Shown here: positions 1-19,262 of the stretch, piece by piece | Layout: every line of letters begins with the position of its first letter | How positions within the stretch are numbered: the stretch's first letter is position 1 | From: Proteromonas lacertae | Taxonomy: Eukaryota | Assembly: GCA_002245135.1 (NCBI GenBank) | Contig: NGBS01000610.1 | Coordinates: 56,496 to 76,495, forward strand | Direction of reading: 5' to 3' | Length of the DNA: 20,000 nucleotides | Notes under the pieces: model-generated | Told to the model about the DNA's origin: nothing | The model's database searches: none | What the model saw: the letters and a program-made list of their open reading frames with translations, nothing else | Position numbers and translations under genes: made by a program

Positions 1-2620
1 TACCATTTATCTCAACATTTACTTTAGTGTAGACATATTTCTCTTCAGTTTTTGGAGCATTTATTGTATATTTATAACCATCATAAACAAAAAGATCAGT
101 TTTTGCATTTTCACCTTTTATTTGATATCCAACTTCATTAGAATATATTGGTCTGATATTTTGAATTTCTACATCTTTATTAAACTTTATTCGATCTATT
201 TCACCCCAACCACCTGTTGCTTTATTCATTTCTTTAAATGTCAATTTATAAGAAACACTATTTAATCCACTCAAATCATTCAAATTTTTAATATAATCAC
301 CCATATCTGTTTCTACTGTCATTACTAAATCGTTTGGAACAACTCCTTTAAAATCTACAAATACATAGTCTATTTCAGTTAAATATAAAACTGGATAAAC
401 AAGCCATTCATCAGATTTAAGAGATACTGGATATAACATTGATCCAAATGAATATTTGTCATTTGGTATTGCAGCTGGAGACAGTTCTATTTCATTATTA
501 TCATTATATTCAAAAGCAACTCGATTTCCATTTTCATTATGATAAAGAACAAATGCATTATAATATGTCACTTTTCCATCTTTATCTTCAACTATTACAA
601 CTCCTTCAGCAAATCCATCAGTTTCAAATGCAGGTAATAACTCAATAAACGTTTTATCAACCACTTTTAATTCTCTTTTATTACCAAAGAAATCAGTTAC
701 ATAAGCTCTTCCACCTTCAGGTACAACTATATTACTACCATATATCAAATTATTAATTCCCAAATCTTCAACTGGAGAACTTGCATCATTCAATTTGGAT
801 CTTTTAACTGAAGCATATTGATAATTCTTTCTACCAAGACCTGAATAGTATTGTCCATCCATTGTTACTGTTATACATTTAGAGCCATTATCACCGTAAC
901 ATACTTTGGATTTTGACAAATCATTACCACTATATGAAACAATTACTTTTCTTCCTTTAACAAATTCATTTTTCTCTGTATATACTCGAGGAACATTCTT
1001 GTTTCGATTGTTTTCATTAACAATATAATACCAACCATTTGGTTTTGTTGATGGTTTGTTGCATGTATAACCACTTTCATCAGAATTCTTTTTACAGTTA
1101 TGAAAACTTGGAGAAAATTTTAAAGAAGGTAAACCACTTGGAGGAGTTGATGGAGGAGATGGTTTTTTGTTTGGATAACATTCTATCTCCACTTCAGCAT
1201 AACTTGCTTCATCATAGTTTCTCTTGTCTTCTTTCACTATTGCTTCTTCTAAACTCTCTTTCAACACTGACTTATAAATTTTAGTCACTCTAATTCTTAA
1301 TGTTCCAGTATCAAAATCAGATGGATAGTAATCAACTCCTGGTAATAATGAACTGTCAGCTAAAGAATTAATCTTGTCAATATTTGCATCTAAATAATTA
1401 CTGTATCTACTTCCACCAATTAACAGTCTTATTCCAAAGTCTTTAGCACTTTGAAGTGTTGGATTTTGTTTATATTCTAAGATCAATGTACCAGATGTTC
1501 CTGAAGTTCCTGTATATTTAGAGGTAAAACTGGTATTCACTAATATTCGAATAGATATACAGTTATATTTGAACGGAATTCCATCAAATACTTCTTCATC
1601 ATTGTGATATGATTCATTTTTACCTAAAAAGTATCTCGAATATGGATGATCATTTGCATAAATTCTATATTTATGAACTCCAGTTTCAATATCTTTGTAT
1701 TGCCACAGCTCTGGTCTGTTTTGTACTATTATTTCTCTATATTCAGAAGTTGGAACAGGATATTTCCATGAGTTACAATTACCCATATATGATCCACAAT
1801 CATTATAATTATCAACAACATCAAAATTATAGAAATTACCTGTTTTATCTACTGTCTTTATACCACTATGATCAAGTCCACAACTATGACCATACTCATG
1901 AATTAGTACTCTCACTCGAGTATTCTCAATATCATCACCAACTTCAATATTTCCTTTAGATATTAACCAAGAATTTTCATTTTTATTTGCAATTTTTGCT
2001 GGAGTTCCTGCTAGTGCCAGACCTGACCATGAAACAGGGAAAGTATCTGTAATATACCATTGAACTCCTACATTAGGAATTGGCTTAGTCTTTTTTGCTT
2101 CTTTTGACAATTCTAACATTAATTTCCAAATATTATCACTGTCATATAAAGCTCTACTTACTGATAGACAGTCACTAATATATAAATCATCTCCTTGATA
2201 TATTCTGATTTGATTGGCTGACCATAATCTCATTCCTAACTCCACATATTTCACATAACTTCTAATTCTATCTATAGAATAGCATATAGAAGGATTATCT
2301 TTATTAGCACCTCTCAATATAGCTACATGTAACATTGTGTTAAACATTGGCGAGTATGATCCAGTTGATAATTCGATTTTCGGTTCAGGTAAAGGAAAGA
2401 AGTGTAGAAGGGTTATTTCATGATCAATTATATCAAATGTGGCTATACCTTTACCAGCACGTAATTTGAACTCTTCTGAATTCATAACCTTATTTAAGTA
2501 ATCTTGTTTATATTTTAAATATACACCTCCATGAGTATCAAAAGCAGCATCTACGGTGGCATTAGTGATTCTTTCTCCACATATCACAGTAACAAACAAA
2601 AAGAATAAAAAAAAATTCAT
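1..2620 (-). CDS. Secreted metzincin zinc metalloprotease (M11/gametolysin-like motif spacing), intronless within the window, >=873 aa, 3' end outside the window
   Basis: Manual translation from ATG at 2620 is open to base 1; it is absent from the ORF track because there is no stop in the window. N-terminus MNFFLFFLFVTVICG looks like a signal peptide. HEYGHSCGLDH (1900..1868) matches HExxHxxGxxH. Downstream YNDCGSYMG is a candidate Met-turn. A Pro/Ser linker (PSPPSTPPSG) precedes a beta-rich C-terminal region. The M11 assignment is an inference. Confidence 0.88.
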   Translation of the reverse strand, partial: MNFFLFFLFVTVICGERITNATVDAAFDTHGGVYLKYKQDYLNKVMNSEEFKLRAGKGIATFDIIDHEITLLHFFPLPEPKIELSTGSYSPMFNTMLHVAILRGANKDNPSICYSIDRIRSYVKYVELGMRLWSANQIRIYQGDDLYISDCLSVSRALYDSDNIWKLMLELSKEAKKTKPIPNVGVQWYITDTFPVSWSGLALAGTPAKIANKNENSWLISKGNIEVGDDIENTRVRVLIHEYGHSCGLDHSGIKTVDKTGNFYNFDVVDNYNDCGSYMGNCNSWKYPVPTSEYREIIVQNRPELWQYKDIETGVHKYRIYANDHPYSRYFLGKNESYHNDEEVFDGIPFKYNCISIRILVNTSFTSKYTGTSGTSGTLILEYKQNPTLQSAKDFGIRLLIGGSRYSNYLDANIDKINSLADSSLLPGVDYYPSDFDTGTLRIRVTKIYKSVLKESLEEAIVKEDKRNYDEASYAEVEIECYPNKKPSPPSTPPSGLPSLKFSPSFHNCKKNSDESGYTCNKPSTKPNGWYYIVNENNRNKNVPRVYTEKNEFVKGRKVIVSYSGNDLSKSKVCYGDNGSKCITVTMDGQYYSGLGRKNYQYASVKRSKLNDASSPVEDLGINNLIYGSNIVVPEGGRAYVTDFFGNKRELKVVDKTFIELLPAFETDGFAEGVVIVEDKDGKVTYYNAFVLYHNENGNRVAFEYNDNNEIELSPAAIPNDKYSFGSMLYPVSLKSDEWLVYPVLYLTEIDYVFVDFKGVVPNDLVMTVETDMGDYIKNLNDLSGLNSVSYKLTFKEMNKATGGWGEIDRIKFNKDVEIQNIRPIYSNEVGYQIKGENAKTDLFVYDGYKYTINAPKTEEKYVYTKVNVEING

Positions 2621-2686
2621 TTTTGTAACGGATATTTAAGAAAATTTTGAGTAAAAACACAAATAATCATAATAACAACATAATAC

Positions 2687-6397: not shown

Positions 6398-7092
6398 ATG
6401 AGTGGTAAAGGTATATTGGTTTTTACAAATGAATAGAATTTTTAAAATGTATGAGTGGAATTAATCAAATGGGAAAAGTAATACAATCTAAGTATATTTT
6501 TTATTATGAGGATATATAGGGTAGATAAAATTAATATAAGATGCAATAAATTGAAAAAATTGTATCAAGCTGCTCCACAAGCATATAAGAAGACTTATGA
6601 AGATTTGATCAAACAACAGCTATTTCACTTGAAAAAATGAAAGAAATATTAACCAATATAAACAAATTATCTTCAACAATTGAAACATGTAATGAAAAAA
6701 TAAAAAATACAACAAAATTAAAATTAAAAGAATCAGAAATAAGCGAAATGGCAAAAGAAATTAATGTGGATGTAAAAACTTTTAATGCTACATATAGTAA
6801 GGTAAAAGACTTAGCTGAAGAAATTGATGGAAATATAAATGTGAATGTAGAAGGAGAGATGAATGAAGAATTTAACGAATTTATGAATAGTGAGGCAAGT
6901 GCTTCTGATGTTATTAACGATCCGACCAAATTAATGGAAGAAGCGAATAATATGTTAAGTTCTTTAGGAGTAAGTGGTATGTTACCAACAGAAGTTAATG
7001 ACCCTACTCCAGCGCTTGCAGCTGTTCCATCTGCAGTTCCAGAAACTAAACATGAAGAGAAGAAAGAAGTTGCAGTAGATTTTGACTATTAA
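6398..7092 (+). CDS. Coiled-coil paralog A (putative divergent ESCRT-III/Snf7-like), about 213 aa; needs one extra base near 6618
   Basis: Introns 6411-6436 and 6492-6519. The frame breaks at aaacaaca^gctatt; adding one A gives LIKQQAISLEKMKE. Basic helical N-half, acidic C-half and a Pro-rich tail. IQSKVDKIN resembles IQSKIEKLN of paralog F. Confidence 0.65.
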
Positions 7093-7260
7093 TTGATTAG
7101 AAATTGTTTATTGATAGTTTATTATTTTTATGTAAAATATGTATTTGTTTATGTTAATAATTTGATTGATATAAAGCATTTTAAAGAGAAAAACAACCAT
7201 AATATTCTAATATATTCAAATTACAATATACATAAATAATTCACAAAAAATGACTAATAC

Positions 7261-7839
7261 TTATGTCTTCATAGCTATACCTTGAATTGGTGGGAGATGA
7301 CCAGCTGTTTAATATAATATAACATAATATATACGCTGTTCTGGAATATTTGTTGAGATTCTTCTTGGACTTAATATTCTTGACTTTCTAGGAGTCATCC
7401 ATGCAGCAGCAGGTGGTAAAACATCGCTTTCATTTATCATAGGTATTAATTCTATTGGTCTATTGGCTCTAACAGGTTGATATCTTGGTGATCTTCTAAA
7501 TAAACTAACTATATTATAATTATACATAGGGGATTTACTCAAATTAACATTATTATATCTCGGAGAATGTTTGGGTATTGGCGAAGGATTTTTCTTTCTA
7601 TCATTTTCAAATTTTTGTAATATTGGTAAATACTGGATATAAAAAAATAAAGATACTTTAGATCCTTCCGTAGAACATTTATTTCTAAGCCAAGCTTCAT
7701 AATGATCTTTATCTCGATTTACATAACTAATTCAATTAAATGAACACATATACTAGTCTTCTCTTTGAATATTATTGGCTACAAACTGAGAAGAACGATT
7801 GTCATATGTTGTATGGGAAATAATTCCTGTATGTAACAT
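7261..7839 (-). CDS. Small basic SP/TP-rich hypothetical protein (gene B), about 155 aa
   Basis: ATG at 7839. Introns 7727-7753 and 7305-7334 are required for frame; 7633-7656 and 7496-7525 are in-frame and probable. Ends HLPPIQGIAMKT*. Several SPR/TPRK motifs; no family recognised. Confidence 0.65.
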
Positions 7840-7895
7840 ATTAAATAAAAAAAGAAAAAAAAACTGATTGAAAATCTATCCGTTTCAAATTTAAA

Positions 7896-8464
7896 ATGTA
7901 AGTTTTTTCTTTTTTAATCGTTAATAGGAGTAAAATATCAGCAGCAGATGCTATAAAATCAAATAATGAGAAGTATAAGGATGATAAAACAAAGTATATT
8001 TAGTTTTTACACTAGTTCAAAGAGCATCTGATAGTTATTTTGATATAATATACAATGAAAAGTTAATCAAGAAAAATCCAAATGATCCACAGAAAGTATT
8101 GTGGGAAACAAAAATAGCTGATCAAAGATCAGCATTTGTAAGGTCAAAAGAAAATGCTAAAAAGGTAATCAATAATATGGGGGTTGTGTATGAGATAGAG
8201 TATAAATTTTGATTGTATTATAAAAATAGTGATAAAAAAGAATTGTTAGATGCAATGAAAAAATACTGTGATGAAATTGATGAAGTAATGAAGTATATTT
8301 AATATTTGATGATTATATGTAATAGAGAATTTCGTGACTTACAAAAAAGTGATGATAAGAATAAAGATGTAATAGAAGGAATAATGAGTGATGTACAAGA
8401 AGGAACTGATGCAATGAACGAATTATTGAATATACAAATGAATGAAGAAGTAGAATATAATTAA
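7896..8464 (+). CDS. Coiled-coil paralog C, about 148 aa, 4 introns, start codon split by an intron
   Basis: AT|intron 7898-7927|G. Further introns 7994-8022 (AAG acceptor), 8200-8229 and 8293-8325, with a 63-nt exon at 8230-8292. Protein MSKISAADAIKS...KDVIEGIMSDVQEGTDAMNELLNIQMNEEVEYN*. Confidence 0.7.
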
Positions 8465-8473
8465 TCACTGTAT

Positions 8474-9129
8474 TTATGCTGTTTCTAATGCTTTTACTCT
8501 TTGTGGTTGTGCTGCAGCTGGTGCTATTGTATCTGTGACATTTAAATTAGCCATTAAAGCAGCAATGTTGAAATCAGCAGCTTCTTCTGGTTTATCTGAT
8601 AAAACTGCTGTATTTTCTGTTCTTTCCATTTCTGTACTAAGTTCTTGAATTTGTTCAGAATTCTCTTGTATTTCATCCAACAATTTGTCTAATTCTTGAT
8701 CAACCTTTTGTTGTTTTCTCAATTCTCTATTTTAACGTATTTTATATAAAATAAACATACTCTAATATCGGTTGAACATTAGTGATGTATTGTTCATTAA
8801 CATCTGTGAAAACTTGTTGATCTCTGAATTATTAAGGAATTTAACAAGTATAAAAATCAAAAATGATATAATAGCTGTTGAGCTGTACACATCATTTTAT
8901 GTATCCTTGGTAATTCAGTCTGTATTTTCTTTAATTTATCTATGTTAGCATTGATAGCATTTTGAGCATTTGCATCTGGATTTGGATTTTTTGCAAGTAT
9001 ATTTTGAAGTAATTTCTGAGTATTTCTGTATCTAATCAAATATAAAAACTAAAAATACTCTTCCATCTTTCCATCGAACGTCTTTTTAAGTTCTGCATAC
9101 TTTGATTCTTTATCCACAGGAACAGACAT
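8474..9129 (-). CDS. Coiled-coil paralog D (Snf7/Vps20-like features), about 182 aa, with an AT-AG U12-like intron
   Basis: Introns 9032-9058 (GT-AG), 8824-8869 (ATATCATTT...TTCCTTAAT AATTCAG) and 8727-8760 (GT-AG), with a 63-nt exon at 8761-8823. LDKLLDEIQENSEQIQELS resembles ESCRT-III helix 4. Confidence 0.75.
8824..8869 (-). other. U12-like intron with AT-AG termini (46 nt)
   Basis: Contains an in-frame TGA so it must be removed. Donor ATATCATTTT; branch-point-like TTCCTTAAT is followed by 7 nt ending in CAG. Removal restores the frame (QQLL|DQQVF). Confidence 0.75.
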
Positions 9130-9204
9130 CGTGTAAACAAAATATCAAGTTTTAAAAATCAAAAAAGGTTTGAAAAGCTTGATCTTTCTTTTCTTGATAT
9201 TTTA

Positions 9205-9735
9205 ATGCCTACTCAACAACCACCACCAGTGAATAAAGCTCAGAAACTAGTTCAACAAATTCAATTATTAGAAGAAAATGTAAACCAAAAACTTGACAGG
9301 TATAAAATTTACACTAGTCTCTTGTTATAGACTTGATAAAATCGATGTTGGCATGATTGCTTTAGCTAAAGAAGTAAAACAACCGAATATAACAAAACAA
9401 AAGCAAGATGAGATCGTTCGTCAAATCCAAAGACTTGATATACAAAGAAAAGAAACACAAAAAGGTTTAGTGAATGATATGAATAATTTAACTGCTTTAG
9501 AAAAGGTCCAATATCTTTTTTTAACTAACATCACACATTTTTACACCTTAATTGTATTTAATAACAATTACAATTATGCATTTGCATGCAAAAAGTTTAC
9601 AGAGATAGGCGCATCACTTAAAGAGTATTAATGTTTTCTCTTCTATATTTTAGTGAATTAATCCTTATACAAAAAGCTTCAGAGTTTGCTGAAAGAATAA
9701 ACCAACATACTGAAGCACTTGATGCTGATGTATAG
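9205..9735 (+). CDS. Coiled-coil paralog E, about 139 aa, with an AT-AA U12-like intron
   Basis: Introns 9300-9330, 9511-9561 and 9625-9653; internal exons of 180 and 63 nt. Aligns ungapped with F: KLVQQIQLLEENVNQKLDRL/KIYNQMQVLETNIQSKIEKL and QKGLVNDMNNLTALEKV/QKGLIIDYNTLSSIERI. Confidence 0.75.
9511..9561 (+). other. U12-like intron with probable AT-AA termini (51 nt, in-frame, no stop)
   Basis: Donor ATATCTTTTT and branch-point-like ACCTTAAT (9545-9552). An acceptor at 9561 yields the same 63-nt next exon as C and D. The nearby AC at 9564-9565 is out of frame. Confidence 0.62.
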
Positions 9736-9811
9736 TAATATTAACTAAATATATATCGATTATTATGTGTTTTTGTTATGTTATTTTCGAAATAAGTTTG
9801 ATTCTTGTTTG

Positions 9812-10317
9812 ATGTCCAAATTCTCAAAAAGTGAAAACTACTACTCTGATACTAAAACAGATTCTCCTGTAAAAAATGAAGAAAAAATATATAATCAAAT
9901 GCAAGTTTTAGAAACAAATATACAATCAAAAATTGAAAAGTATATAAACTTAAGATATTATATAATAGACTAAATGATATTTACTTAGAAAAAGTAAAAT
10001 ATGAGAAGACTTGCTTATCAGAAGACAGTACCAAAGAAATTAGAGATAATGCTAAAGAATGCATTTTTAAGCTTGAAAATATGAAAAATGAAGTGCAGAA
10101 AGGATTAATTATAGATTATAATACTCTTAGTTCTATAGAAAGGATATTATATCATTTTTTTACTTTTTGTTTAATCTGTTAGAATTTTTAATATACTATC
10201 GATGATTATATCGTTTCTAAAGTATGTGGAGAGATTTCTATTCTATGCTTAGATTTTAATGAGTATATATATATATATTAAATTTGATATAGAAATATGA
10301 ATAGTTCAAAGGTATAA
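9812..10317 (+). CDS. Coiled-coil paralog F, about 131 aa, with an AT-AT (or AT-AC) U12-like intron
   Basis: Introns 9940-9968, 10149-10199 (or -10196) and 10263-10292; internal exons of 180 and 63 nt. Clear similarity to E. The 3' end at GTA TAA is uncertain because it could be another donor. Confidence 0.72.
10149..10199 (+). other. U12-like intron with AT-AT (51 nt) or AT-AC (48 nt) termini
   Basis: Donor TT|ATATCATTTT is identical to that of D. In-frame TAG at 10180 forces removal, and the nearby GT/AG pairs do not restore the frame. Branch-like TTTTTAAT at 10185-10192. Confidence 0.7.
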
Positions 10318-10756
10318 AATGTTGAATATGATGTTGTTAATGGTGCTCTACCTCTAATTAGTTTTTTTACTTAATTAACTTTTTTATCAAATTAAACACA
10401 TGATATATTCATTATTTACATATTTTTGGAAAGTAAATTTCTGTTAATCAGTATAAAGGATGAATAATATGAATGAAAAAACAGTCGGATATTTTCAAAT
10501 TCTAATTGATTATATTAAACATCATGTATTCGAAAAGTAGAATTCATAAAAGCGATGCTTTTCAGAATAATGTGAAAAATCAAGTTCAAATTTTCAAAAA
10601 TACTTCCGGCTTGAAAATTTTGCACCATTAAATCTTTTCGTTTATTTTAATTCATATTTCTTAAACTTCTTCACGTTTTGTTTAAATATTTAAAGTCAAT
10701 AATATATATTCAGTTTAATTGTTATTTATTATATATGAATACATACTTCTAATACC

Positions 10757-14987: not shown

Positions 14988-17900
14988 ATGTCAGTAGTAT
15001 AACTATACATCAATTTATCTTTTAACTAGCCTGGAAGCGTACCTGCTATGACGCCAGAAGGAAGTCCAAGTGGCTTTCCCTCATCTGTGAAAAAAACATC
15101 TACATTAGTACTCTGTGGTGAAATAGAAAGAGGTAATGTTAGAAGACCCACACATCATAAATCACAGCAAACTGCATTTGATAAAGTATTGAAATAATTA
15201 TTAATACATAATAGCTTGGCTTAGGAACAGTCATAGGTCAAAGATTCGTAATTGAGAGTTCTGTTGGCTCAGGATCTTTTGGAGAAAGTATTGAAATACT
15301 TTGTTATATTTTAAATAGTTATATTAGCAACAGATAAAACAACAGACAACAAAGTAGCAATTAAATGCGAACCAATGAATATATCTCGTCCACAATTACG
15401 AGGAGAAGGCAAATTTCTTGCAAATTTAAAAGATTGTAAGGGTTTTACTAGCGTTTTATGGACAGGATCAGAATTAGGTTATTATTTCTTAGCTATGGAT
15501 TTATTAGGTCAAAGTTTAGATGCTCTCTTTGAAAAGAATAATAAAAAGTTTTCCTTAAAGACTGTATTACTTTTAGTTGACCAAATGTTAATTCGAATTG
15601 AAGATTTACACGAACATGACTATATTCATAGAGATTTAAAACCAGAAGTATTATTATTCCATATTATATATTATAAAATAGAATTGGATGATGGGTTTAG
15701 GAGAAAATGCAGATTTATTATACTTAATCGATTTTGGTTTATCTAAGTCCTACAGGAATCAAAGAACACATCAACATATACCATTCAGAGAAGATTGTAG
15801 TTTAACAGGAACAGCTCGATATTGTAGTATAAATGCACATCATAGTGAACAATCTAGAAGAGATGATTTAGAATCATTAGGATATATATTAATATACTTT
15901 CTAAAAGGTCATTTACCATGGCAAGGGATTAGCAGAGGAGTAGCAACCAGTCATATGTCAATTATTGAACAAACGAAAATAAATACAAGTGTCGATTCAT
16001 TATGTGCAGATTTACCAATAGAATTTAAGAAATATATAGAATATTGTCGAAGTCTAGAATTCCAAACAAAACCAGATTATAAGTATTTAAGAAGAATGTT
16101 CCAGAAATTGGCTCTTAAAAACGGATATAAATATGATGATATATATGATTGGTCAGAATCTGGAAAGAAGCCTGTTATACATCCATCTATTAACAATATG
16201 TTACAAACACTACCTGTAATGCCTTCTAATAATAATAATAATATAAACAACAACAATAATGAAAATATTAATGGTGAAGGAAATGAAATGAATCAACCTT
16301 TTGATGAAGATGAATTATGTGATAAATGTCCATTATGTCTATGGAGAAGTATATATATATATATATATATTCATTATAATTATTAAATAAATAGCTCCTG
16401 AAAATGCCTCTGAAAACAATACTCAAGATGCTGAGCAATACTTCCCATTACATGAAGGAATAATTGGCTGTGATAAAGATAAAGCAAATATTACAATTGA
16501 TGGTATAGAATATGCGCATGCTAGATTGACATGGGATCAAGTCAAAGGAGCTTATTGCTTACAAGATAATAAGAGTGAAACAGGTACATTTTTATTATTA
16601 AGTTCAGAAAGAAGATGTAGAGAGTATATTTATTATTTTATATTATTGTTTTTTAAATAGTACAATTGAATTAAAGAAAGGTGATAAATTCTATATAAGT
16701 CAAGGAGTAGAAGTGGAAGTATTACATATTGATTATGCGACAATCACATTACCAGAAGAAATAGTGTATAAAATGCATCCAACATCTTATCAATATAATG
16801 CAACTGAATGTAGTTTTAATCCATCATCAAACCCCAAAAATTGTGGGAAAACAAAACCCCATATCCGTTTCAATGATGAAATAAATGACAGTGATGGTAA
16901 TAAAATGGAATTACACGAAGAAGAAGAAGTAATAGAAAATATGCAATATCATTTATCAGCAAAATTAGCAGTAAGAGTTGGTAAAACATTTAATGATGAG
17001 AGTGAGATTATTCAAGCACAGATCATTGATGTTACAAGAGAAGTTACATTGGGAAGTTTATCAACAAATGCAGTGCAATTACCAGAAGAATGTGCTGGAG
17101 TTCATTGTAAGATTTCAGTATTAAATGATAAATTATTATTAAAAGATGTATATAATATATATATTATTATATAAATAGTTGGCAGTAGGTGATCCTGGTG
17201 GTACAAAACTATTTTTATCACGTCCAATTGAACTATTTGAAAGAGATATCATCGTATTTGGTGAATCAATAGAACTAGGAGTAATGCCAGTAGCTGATTC
17301 TCCAGTATTAGAGTGTGTATGGGAAGAATGTGCTGTTAGATTAACACCAATTAGAAAATCAAAAAGAACACCGATTTATTCAAAAGAAGCACAAATGGAT
17401 AAAACCATTATATTCAGAGTTCCAAAAGATGGTGAAGTTATTATTGGTAGATCAGAAGATAATCATATTCATTTCCAGATGTATATAAATTATTATTTAT
17501 TTAAATAGTATAAATTATCAGATAGACATGCTTGTATGTATTTTGAGCCATTAGAAAAGAAATTTTATTTAGAATCATTAGTCATGTCTCGTTCACAAAT
17601 TACTGAATTGTTATTAGGAAGAGCAACATCATCTACCAAATCACCTTACAAGCTAAACAAAGATGATGTATTTTGTATTAGTGGTTCACAATTCCAAGTG
17701 ATTGGTATGAAGGTAGAAACAAAAGAAGAAGTTGAAAAAAGAGAACAATTGGCATTTGATAGAGCAGAGAAGTTATGGAAAGATGTTTCACTTCTTTCTT
17801 TATTACCAAAAGAAATATTCACCAAAGTAGCTGATGCTTTAAAACCAGTAACATTTTCAGAAGGTGAATATTTATTACAACAAGGTGAAATTGGTACAAT

Positions 17901-19262
17901 CTTTTATATTATTAAGAAAGGAAAAGTGGATATTATCTATACATCCAAAGGTGAAAAGACTTTATTAAAAACATGTGGTCCAAATGATGCTTTAGGTGAA
18001 TTATCAATTATCAATGGAACAACTTATTCAGCATCAGCAATAGCAACTACAGAAACAGTTGAATGTATGGCTTTAGATAGTGTTTCGTTTTTAAATTACG
18101 TTGGTCCTTATATTGGTACAATCGGTGAAGCAGCTAGAAAGAGAGATATGGATACTTATGTTGATTTATTGTCACAATTGAATTCTTTAATACATTACCA
18201 CATGATGAAATAGTGAAGATTGCTAATGTTTGTCATCCTAAAACATTCCATGATAAGGAATATCTTACTAAAGAAGGTGAAACTGGTCAGAATTTAGATT
18301 TCTTTGTAATTATCAGTGGACAGGTTAGAATTACTAAAAGTATTGATTTAGAAAATACAATTACAATGTTATCAAATGGTGATTATTTAGGTGAAAAAGC
18401 ATTATTTACAGGTAATCCAAGAAATGCAAATGCCATAGCCGTTGGTTTAGTGGAAACATTATCATTAGAAAGATCTGATTTTGATTTATACTTAAAAGAT
18501 CATTTGTTGAAATATTTAGGTGAAAATGATAAGACTGAAGTTATAAATAGTAGCAGAGGATTGCAAGATAGTGGAATAGCAAAACCAATCAATTCATATA
18601 CACAGCAACTAAAAACAAGAAGATTAAGTGAACAAAAACCATTAGAAATTCAACAACCTGTAATTAAACCACCAATAAGGAATACATTAGCAAATATTCC
18701 AGAAACACCTGAAGAAGATGACGAAGAAGGAGGAGGTGGAGGAGATGTGGATGATGAAGAAGTAGATCATGCATCTAATCCAAGTTACTTTAGTGATGAA
18801 GAATTACAAATAGAAAATGAAAATGATATAGAAATATTTGAATCATGTCAGGGTTAAAGAAATCACATTATATCATATTAAAAGTATTATCAGGACCATT
18901 AAGACAAGCAATATATGTTATGGAAGGAGATTTAATTACAATTGGTACTGGAGTATGTACAATATCTATAAATGATTCATCATTGAATTCTTTACATTGT
19001 TCAATAGAATATAGAGAAAATGGATATTGGCTATCAGATTCTGATAGTGATAGTGGAACATTTTTACAATTAGGTTAGGTTTAGCTTTTCCTGTTCAAGT
19101 TGGTGATTCATTCAGATTAGTAATACAGAATTAACCATTTTAGGTAAAACAAAGACAATTGAGAAATCAACTGTTATTCAAGAACCACCACCTCGTAGTC
19201 AAAATAGTGTGATTAATATTCCACCAATATACACTCCAGGTCCTTGTTGTGAAGTTATGTAA
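14988..19262 (+). CDS. Casein kinase 1 fused to FHA x3, cNMP-binding x2, a fourth FHA and a C-terminal CCEVM; about 1336 aa after 8 introns and 5 single-base corrections
   Basis: Introns 14997-15029, 15186-15214, 15288-15318, 15648-15681, 16349-16394, 16624-16660, 17148-17178 and 17481-17508. CK1 motifs: GSGSFGE, VAIKCE, HRDLKPEN, IDFGLSK, TGTARY, EQSRRDDLESLGY. FHA-like: HARL..LQDNKSETGTF, IIGRSEDN..SDRHA, HCSI..LSDSDSDSGTF. cNMP: LGELSII and YLGEKALFTGNPRNA. Confidence 0.82.

What the first reader, a model, noticed from the sequence alone, without database searches (positions are those of the whole stretch)
6398..10317. Cluster of five highly diverged small coiled-coil paralogs, possibly an expanded ESCRT-III-like family
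A, C, D, E and F share an early phase-2 intron (offset by about 3 codons in A) and a helical hairpin pattern. E and F align ungapped, and C-F share the 63-nt exon. A and D have a basic N-half, an acidic C-half and a Pro/Ala tail, with D's LDKLLDEIQENSEQIQELS and C's VIEGIMSDVQEG resembling Snf7/Vps20 helix 4. C, E and F (148, 139 and 131 aa) appear to lack the C-terminal tail that in ESCRT-III autoinhibits and carries the Vps4-binding MIMs. Inference: a clustered, lineage-specific membrane-remodelling or filament system with full-length and tail-less subunits. The family call is tentative.
Basis: inference. Interest (0 to 1): 0.75.

Follow-up and report, generated by a model that had tools for sequence, protein, structure and literature searches.

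The report
Five-gene ESCRT-III-like cluster with minor introns
Five small helical-protein genes lie within 4 kb of a compact, AT-rich protist genome, and four share one exon layout that includes a predicted rare minor-type intron in three of them; they are likely old duplicates and possibly very diverged membrane-bending ESCRT-III subunits, three of which would lack the usual regulatory tail.

Summary
The five genes are real. E-F are clear paralogs (27 of 89 residues identical, ungapped). C-D align with their introns in the same columns. C-F share three phase-2 introns in one layout. A is tied in more weakly, by one intron.

The ESCRT-III call stays unproven. For it: two sub-threshold Pfam Snf7 hits in concordant register, Snf7 as the only named Atlas family shown, colinear alignment to Asgard ESCRT-III, and fitting helix lengths and charge split. 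Against it: nothing reaches a cutoff, one Pfam hit vanishes in a 99%-identical sequence, and fold searches did not single out ESCRT-III.

Odds: ESCRT-III-derived 0.55, orphan coiled-coil family 0.33. No RNA or whole genome was available, so splicing, expression and the canonical ESCRT-III set are untested.

The parts
6398..7092 (+). Gene A, about 213 aa. Exons 6398-6410, 6437-6491, 6520-7092; an alternative start lies at 6451. Helical core plus acidic Pro-containing tail.
   Evidence: Model; orthologues P0001 and P0002 at 49% and 43% identity; alignment
6632..6637 (+). A6 run at which gene A changes frame; likely an assembly error, or a private frameshift
   Evidence: Both orthologue clusters are one open protein across it: 20 of 25 and 27 of 33 identical before, 74 of 141 and 62 of 144 after
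7261..7839 (-). Gene B, a Pro/Arg/Ser-rich orphan inside the cluster, head-to-head with C; not a family member as far as tested
   Evidence: Two introns of 27 and 30 nt; no Pfam hit below E 0.1 for its main ORF
7896..8464 (+). Gene C, 148 aa; exons 7896-7897, 7928-7993, 8023-8199, 8230-8292, 8326-8464; four GT-AG phase-2 introns; ends soon after the putative helix 4
   Evidence: aligns to D with both later introns in the same columns
8474..9129 (-). Gene D, 182 aa; exons 9129-9059, 9031-8870, 8823-8761, 8726-8474; the most Snf7-like member
   Evidence: last exon Pfam Snf7 E 0.013, 15.7 bits against a cutoff of 27.3; colinear with Asgard profile
8824..8869 (-). D intron 2, predicted U12 type: 46 nt, starts ATATCATT, CCTTAAT branch motif 8 nt from an AG end
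   Evidence: GT-AG (67 nt) and GC-AG (52 nt) alternatives also keep the frame
9130..9204 (.). 75-nt head-to-head spacer of D and E, with an exact 11-nt inverted repeat (9139-9149 and 9193-9203), one arm before each start codon
   Evidence: Only two exact copies in the window; 7 of 1000 shuffles reach this length (found after the fact)
9205..9735 (+). Gene E, 139 aa (156 aa if intron 2 is retained); exons 9205-9299, 9331-9510, 9562-9624, 9654-9735; ends at the end of the putative helix 4
9511..9561 (+). E intron 2, predicted U12 type: starts ATATCTTT, CCTTAAT branch motif, 3' end uncertain (51 nt with AT-AA); in frame and stop-free, so it could be retained
9812..10317 (+). Gene F, 131-132 aa; exons 9812-9939, 9969-10148, 10197 or 10200-10262, 10293-10317; closest paralog of E; shortest C-end
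10149..10199 (+). F intron 2, predicted U12 type: starts ATATCATT at the same exon offset as in E (180 nt); ends AT-AC at 10196 or AT-AT at 10199; holds an in-frame stop, so it must be removed

Best explanation
A, C, D, E and F are five neighbouring genes for small helical proteins that likely arose by old local duplication and likely descend from an ESCRT-III (Snf7-type) subunit. Shown: the genes, their shared intron layout, E-F and C-D homology, the short C-ends of C, E and F, and conservation of A in two other organisms' sequence data. Inferred: each would fold as a helix 1/helix 2 hairpin followed by helices 3 and 4. A and D keep an acidic tail and would be the regulated, closable subunits. 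C and E stop after helix 4 and F stops at its start, so by analogy with tail-less Snf7 they would be constitutively open, unable to recruit Vps4 through a tail, and would serve as nucleators, stabilisers or caps in a shared membrane-bound filament for a lineage-specific bending or scission task. The middle intron of D, E and F is predicted to be spliced by the minor spliceosome; it was likely present in the ancestor of C-F, with C carrying a major-type intron at that site. The frame break in A is likely an assembly error.
For: Gene structure. Pfam Snf7 on D exon 4 (E 0.013, profile 98-157) and on orthologue P0002 (E 0.53, residues 4-127 on profile 22-143); through the family alignment the two hits agree within about 2 positions (96 predicted, 98 found). 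Snf7 is the only named family shown among 30 Atlas hits for P0002. Blind MAFFT lays the A group and D exon 4 colinearly on Asgard ESCRT-III, with hairpin turn, helix 3/4 hinge and tail LP motif matched. D aligns to the 128-column Asgard core with three short gaps and outscores its reverse (-0.3 against -22) and all 45 non-Snf7 helical decoys. AlphaFold2 without Snf7 rows gives helices 2-12, 15-60, 66-75, 80-105, 109-121. Basic N-part and acidic C-part in A, C, D; no transmembrane stretch (highest 19-residue hydropathy 1.3). Forward beats reversed in 9 of 9 hhalign comparisons. Removing the Snf7 tail gives the open, polymerising form (PMC4720517, passages).
Against: No hit reaches a cutoff. Snf7 is listed for 1 of 12 segments (rank 2 of 6), 1 of 3 proteins (rank 13 of 23) and 0 of 8, which included P0012, 99% identical to P0002. 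NCBIfam: no ESCRT-type family for 9 queries. Asgard HMM gives 2.8-3.6 bits for four models and nothing for F, whereas a related Asgard profile finds yeast Snf7 at 72-78 bits and CHMP1/2A at 21-30. hhalign probabilities are 0.2-3.3%. The Atlas hit is below its own guide values (score 0.88, 159 shared features, recognition 1772, 16% of the cluster). In one search A ties with its reverse, E scores below its reverse, and C and F are unremarkable. A hits syntaxin better than Snf7 (Pfam E 0.0018; PDB E 0.018). No canonical MIM in any member. Intron-anchored ACD against EF is best at offset 0 (z 6.3) but offset -4 gives 5.9, and blind alignment misregisters E/F.
Confidence: 0.55

Rival explanations
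1. A real paralog family, but an orphan lineage-specific coiled-coil family (structural or adaptor subunits of a small helical-bundle complex) whose Snf7 likeness comes from heptad periodicity and acidic composition.
For: All family hits are sub-threshold and mixed with many unrelated coiled-coil families; reversed sequences score as well for A and E; only two relatives of A, both unnamed, among 1.84 billion representatives.
Against: Two paralogs hit Snf7 in the same register; the Atlas lead; turn, hinge and LP landmarks are colinear with Asgard ESCRT-III; lengths and charge polarity fit.
Confidence: 0.33
2. SNARE-related: detached Habc-type three-helix regulatory domains (syntaxin or Stx6/Tlg1 N-terminal domain).
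Against: Hits cover only two helices and are below cutoff; the predicted 46-, 10- and 26-residue helices do not fit three equal Habc helices (recalled); no membrane anchor; no syntaxin family listed for C, D, E or F at E below 1.
Confidence: 0.07
3. Not one family: unrelated small helical genes (A alone, C-D, E-F) that happen to be neighbours.
For: Blind alignment does not put E/F in register with A/C/D; A-C, A-E, C-E, C-F and D-E are not significant by local alignment; A lacks two of the three shared introns.
Against: Same three-intron, all-phase-2 layout with a 162-180 nt and a 63-66 nt exon in C-F; an AT-starting donor at the same site in D and in E/F (chance about 0.006 within 9 nt either side); anchored z 2.0-3.4 for C/D against E/F. 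This rival is live mainly for A.
Confidence: 0.05

Closest known systems
ESCRT-III Snf7 family (Pfam PF03357; yeast Snf7/Vps20/Vps60, Asgard ESCRT-IIIB)
   Same: Size of A and D, basic N-part and acidic C-part, predicted long helix followed by short helices, colinear weak alignment, Pro-containing tail with an LP motif in the A group.
   Different: Far below family cutoffs; no canonical MIM1 or MIM2; three members end before helix 5; genes are clustered, with shared introns; no subfamily can be assigned.
Divergent ESCRT-III paralogs of gut protists, such as Giardia VPS20L and VPS24L (bioRxiv 10.1101/2021.02.11.430673, passages)
   Same: Lineage-specific duplication and divergence of ESCRT-III in an intestinal protist with reduced ESCRT-I.
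   Different: Those were recognised by homology search and placed in trees; the passages read describe no genomic cluster or tail-less Snf7-type subunits.
U12-type introns of Blastocystis (PMC5608401, passages; PMC10639083, passages)
   Same: AT-starting introns longer than a roughly 30-nt major class (reported mean just under 42 nt); AT-AA and AT-AT ends are known non-canonical minor termini.
   Different: Here one site is held in three paralogs with predicted AG, AA and AC/AT ends, is major-type in a fourth and absent in a fifth; none is RNA-verified, and the organism is not identified.
Syntaxin Habc domain (PF14523, PF09177)
   Same: Weak two-helix sequence likeness of A.
   Different: Helix lengths, no membrane anchor, no hit below E 1 in the other four genes.

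Membership tests
ESCRT-III / Snf7 | Pfam PF03357 above the gathering score (27.3 bits) | tested here: inconclusive
   Best 15.7 bits (D exon 4) and 10.4 bits (P0002); not listed. Only single exons, read-through frames and N-truncated orthologues could be scanned, not the spliced proteins.
ESCRT-III / Snf7 | Significant profile match of the spliced proteins to an ESCRT-III profile | tested here: not met
   Asgard-only profiles: 2.8-3.6 bits, hhalign at most 3.3%. No eukaryotic profile was on hand, and the Asgard B profile lists no CHMP3/Vps24 or IST1 chain among its 14 PDB hits, so the test is not sensitive.
ESCRT-III / Snf7 | Helix 1/2 hairpin plus helices 3-4 core fold | tested here: inconclusive
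ESCRT-III / Snf7 | Basic N-terminal, acidic C-terminal charge polarity | tested here: met
   A +8/-14, D +4/-14, C +3/-11; weak in E (+3/-3); absent in F.
ESCRT-III / Snf7 | C-terminal MIM1 or MIM2 for Vps4 | tested here: not met
   No MIM1 and no full MIM2 pattern in 7 of 7 sequences; only a partial LP-T motif in the A group (patterns recalled).
ESCRT-III / Snf7 | Membrane binding, polymerisation, Vps4-dependent turnover | not testable with these tools
   Needs purified proteins.
U12-type intron | 5' splice site of the RTATCCTT type | tested here: met
   ATATCATT (D, F) and ATATCTTT (E): one mismatch each to the recalled consensus, at the homologous phase-2 site.
U12-type intron | CCTTAAY branch motif close to the 3' end | tested here: met
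   CCTTAAT 8 nt (D) and 10 nt (E) from the modelled end; F has only TTTTAAT. A CCTTAA motif occurs in 0 of 12 GT-AG introns of the cluster, TTTTAAT in 1.
U12-type intron | Spliced junction in RNA; U11/U12/U4atac/U6atac in the genome | not testable with these tools
   No genome held; no sequencing run listed.
Syntaxin / Qa-SNARE | Habc bundle followed by SNARE motif and C-terminal membrane anchor | tested here: not met
   No hydrophobic anchor; Habc hits partial and below cutoff.

The most novel reading that the evidence does not exclude
A self-contained, co-transcribed ESCRT-III filament system in a gut-type protist: two tailed subunits plus three naturally tail-less, always-open subunits build a Vps4-independent membrane polymer, with output of three members gated by a shared minor-spliceosome intron that has drifted to three different 3' ends, switched class in one copy and is absent from another.
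Probability: 0.15. Interest if true: 0.8.

Novelty: new variant of a known kind. Interest (0 to 1): 0.5.

Why it matters
If these are ESCRT-III, natural subunits without helix 5 and MIM would test how filaments are controlled when autoinhibition and Vps4 recruitment are missing, a state so far made mainly by engineering. They would also show that ESCRT surveys based on Pfam or BLAST miss whole paralog sets in divergent protists. Whatever the proteins are, one intron site in minor, major and absent states across five neighbouring paralogs is a compact case for studying minor-intron conversion. Gene finders that demand GT-AG would likely mis-model D, E and F.

Tried and rejected
No own genome. 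No sequencing run was listed, so no reads were laid. Word-index search with A's ORF: none of 64 candidates scored; with the A alignment only P0001 and P0002 among 7992 candidates. No homologue search was left for C, D, E or F. Of the 5 hits, P0003-P0005 were dropped as short repeated matches. Exact look-ups of 4 window ORFs: 0 found. Synteny through the NLE1 neighbour: 51 metagenome loci, the full-length ones at most about 60% identical, so no close relative. Viral contigs and phages: nothing. PDB sequence searches with exons or exon alignments listed no ESCRT-III chain. Foldseek: no match at E 0.001 or below for either model (a Vipp1/PspA entry at E 7). VIA-align: no ESCRT-III chain in the top 50 for the model seeded with Asgard rows; that model is biased toward ESCRT-III and was not counted as support. 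Atlas for E exons 2-3: no usable hit. Rfam: 0 matches. No DNA-level repeat links the genes. In one search the top 3 of 48 decoys came from Asgard Snf7 loci and were dropped as leaked positives. A canonical 41-nt intron could also bridge A's frame break, but was rejected because the orthologues conserve those codons. No complex prediction was run. Four look-ups of earlier findings returned nothing. No eukaryotic Snf7 sequences could be obtained for a local profile.
Full report
Setting. The window is a compact eukaryotic sequence of about 27% G+C with GT-AG introns of 26-34 nt. Neighbours are a CBF/Mak21 gene, NLE1, a FYVE protein, two kinases and FHA/cNMP domains. No genome, sequencing run or close relative was available. 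Introns near 30 nt, AT-starting longer introns and tiny spacers resemble Blastocystis (PMC5608401, passages). But G+C is 39-55% in human isolates and 21-23% in tortoise isolates with longer introns (PMC12129017, passages), and the TGTTTGTT motif occurs only once in 20 kb. I call the organism Blastocystis-like and leave it unidentified.

The genes. A has only the early one. Phase 2 holds for 14 of 15 cluster introns against 3 of 11 in neighbours (p 0.0008, or 0.003 with E/F counted once). An unrelated gene B sits between A and C.

Paralogy. E-F is certain: 27 of 89 identical without gaps, z 16. C-D scores z 4.9 against full shuffles and 2.5 against heptad-preserving ones, and alignments blind to gene structure put both later introns in identical columns under three MAFFT modes. 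E/F are not put in register with A/C/D by blind alignment. Anchored on introns they score z 2.0-3.4 against C and D; pooled with A the best offset is 0 (z 6.3), but -4 gives 5.9. Their link therefore rests on gene structure. A's intron falls in C's column, but anchored A-C and A-D are not significant. My estimates: C-F one family about 0.9; A included about 0.7.

A predicted minor intron. The middle intron of D, E and F starts ATATCATT or ATATCTTT and is 46-51 nt. D and E carry CCTTAAT 8-10 nt before the modelled end. In E and F the donor lies exactly 180 nt into the exon; in D it lies in the column where C has a 30-nt GT-AG intron. The motif occurs at 3e-4 per base in simulations, about 0.006 for one coincidence within 9 nt either side (motif defined after seeing it). 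A 63-nt third exon needs AT-AG, AT-AA and AT-AT ends; F can also use AT-AC (66 nt). AT-AA and AT-AT are the commonest non-canonical minor termini in animals (PMC10639083, passage). The reading is not forced: D has GT-AG and GC-AG alternatives, F has two GT-AG alternatives, and E's intron is in frame without a stop.

Gene A is broken in this sequence. It changes frame at the A6 run 6632-6637. A search of 1.84 billion representatives gave 5 hits, two of them true orthologues, P0001 and P0002 (49% and 43%), unnamed, in clusters of 6 and 3 members. Both are continuous across the break and conserve both sides. A homopolymer assembly error is the likely cause; a private frameshift is not excluded. 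The orthologues also show that A is conserved, including its last five residues.

Is it ESCRT-III? Asgard Snf7 loci were fetched as a reference. For: Pfam Snf7 on D exon 4 (E 0.013) and on P0002 (E 0.53, colinear over 124 residues), agreeing in register within about 2 positions. Snf7 is the only named family shown among 30 Atlas neighbours of P0002. Blind alignment to Asgard proteins is colinear at the hairpin turn, the helix 3/4 hinge and a tail LP motif. D aligns to the core almost without gaps and beats its reverse and 45 of 45 non-Snf7 decoys; A is beaten by 2, E by 4, C by 15 and F by 33 (after dropping 3 leaked Snf7 ORFs). The unseeded model has helices of 46, 10 and 26 residues after a turn. 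Against: nothing reaches a cutoff; Snf7 is listed for 0 of 8 queries, including a 99%-identical copy of P0002; NCBIfam lists no ESCRT family for 9 queries; Asgard profiles give 2.8-3.6 bits and at most 3.3%, with z of -0.7 to 4.2 against shuffles; the Atlas row is below its own guide values; A and E do no better than their reverses; A hits syntaxin more strongly; no canonical MIM is present. Both models are low in confidence and lack most of helix 1, so the fold searches decide nothing. The spliced proteins themselves were not scanned against Pfam or folded, which is the main gap.

Mechanism. Snf7 has a four-helix core, an autoinhibitory helix 5 and a MIM; removing the tail yields the open polymer form (PMC4720517, passages). 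Helix 5 and the MIM bind Vps4, and helix 4 makes lateral contacts (PMC8143795, passages). On the Asgard alignment E ends with helix 4; by the family register C ends just after it and F at its start. If the family call holds, A and D would be the closable subunits, C and E open co-polymerising ones, and F a cap or a decaying copy. D and E share a 75-nt divergent spacer with mirrored 11-nt elements, which suggests co-expression. Every step in this paragraph beyond gene anatomy is inferred.

Known context. In Blastocystis ESCRT-I was not found, while the other complexes are described as largely complete, some with several paralogs (PMC5608401, S1 Text part 2). Its S3 Fig with paralog counts was not available as text and may bear on whether a canonical set exists. 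Giardia has divergent duplicated ESCRT-III (bioRxiv 10.1101/2021.02.11.430673, passages; supplements not seen). Searches listed no paper on a clustered or tail-less ESCRT-III family in such a protist; I saw only listings for most, and subscription journals are largely missing from the library.

Verdict. A real, previously unannotated paralog cluster with an unusual intron history. ESCRT-III-derived 0.55, orphan coiled-coil family 0.33, SNARE-related 0.07, unrelated neighbours 0.05. It should not be filed as a Snf7 member yet: the profile and MIM tests were not met, and the fold test was inconclusive. Interest 0.5.

Noticed in passing
window 10312-10374 (+): F's frame stays open for 18 codons past its stop, and 10312 resembles the local 5' splice site; a TGTTGTT element follows the stop. 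F's true C-end is uncertain.
   Followed up: partly
window 7261-7839 (-): Gene B: orphan Pro/Arg/Ser-rich protein with several SPR repeats, head-to-head with C, 56 nt between start codons.
   Followed up: partly
window 2-2635 (-): Intronless ORF of at least 878 aa with a signal-peptide-like start and an HExxHxxGxxH zincin-like motif (motif recalled); no Pfam hit at E 0.001.
   Followed up: no
window 14988-19262 (+): A kinase gene (casein kinase 1-like by eye) is followed within a few bases by ORFs with FHA and two cNMP-binding domains; possibly one fused gene.
   Followed up: no
window 7060-7092 (+); P0001, P0002: The A group ends in a conserved EKKExxVDFDY motif of unknown partner; a candidate adaptor-binding site in place of a MIM.
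   Followed up: no
window 8464-8474: The stop codons of C and D are 9 nt apart, so their 3' UTRs must overlap each other's coding ends.
   Followed up: no
L176:817-3382: Reference Asgard locus with two ESCRT-III genes directly followed by a Vps4-like ATPase; no such ATPase gene was seen in the window.
   Followed up: no
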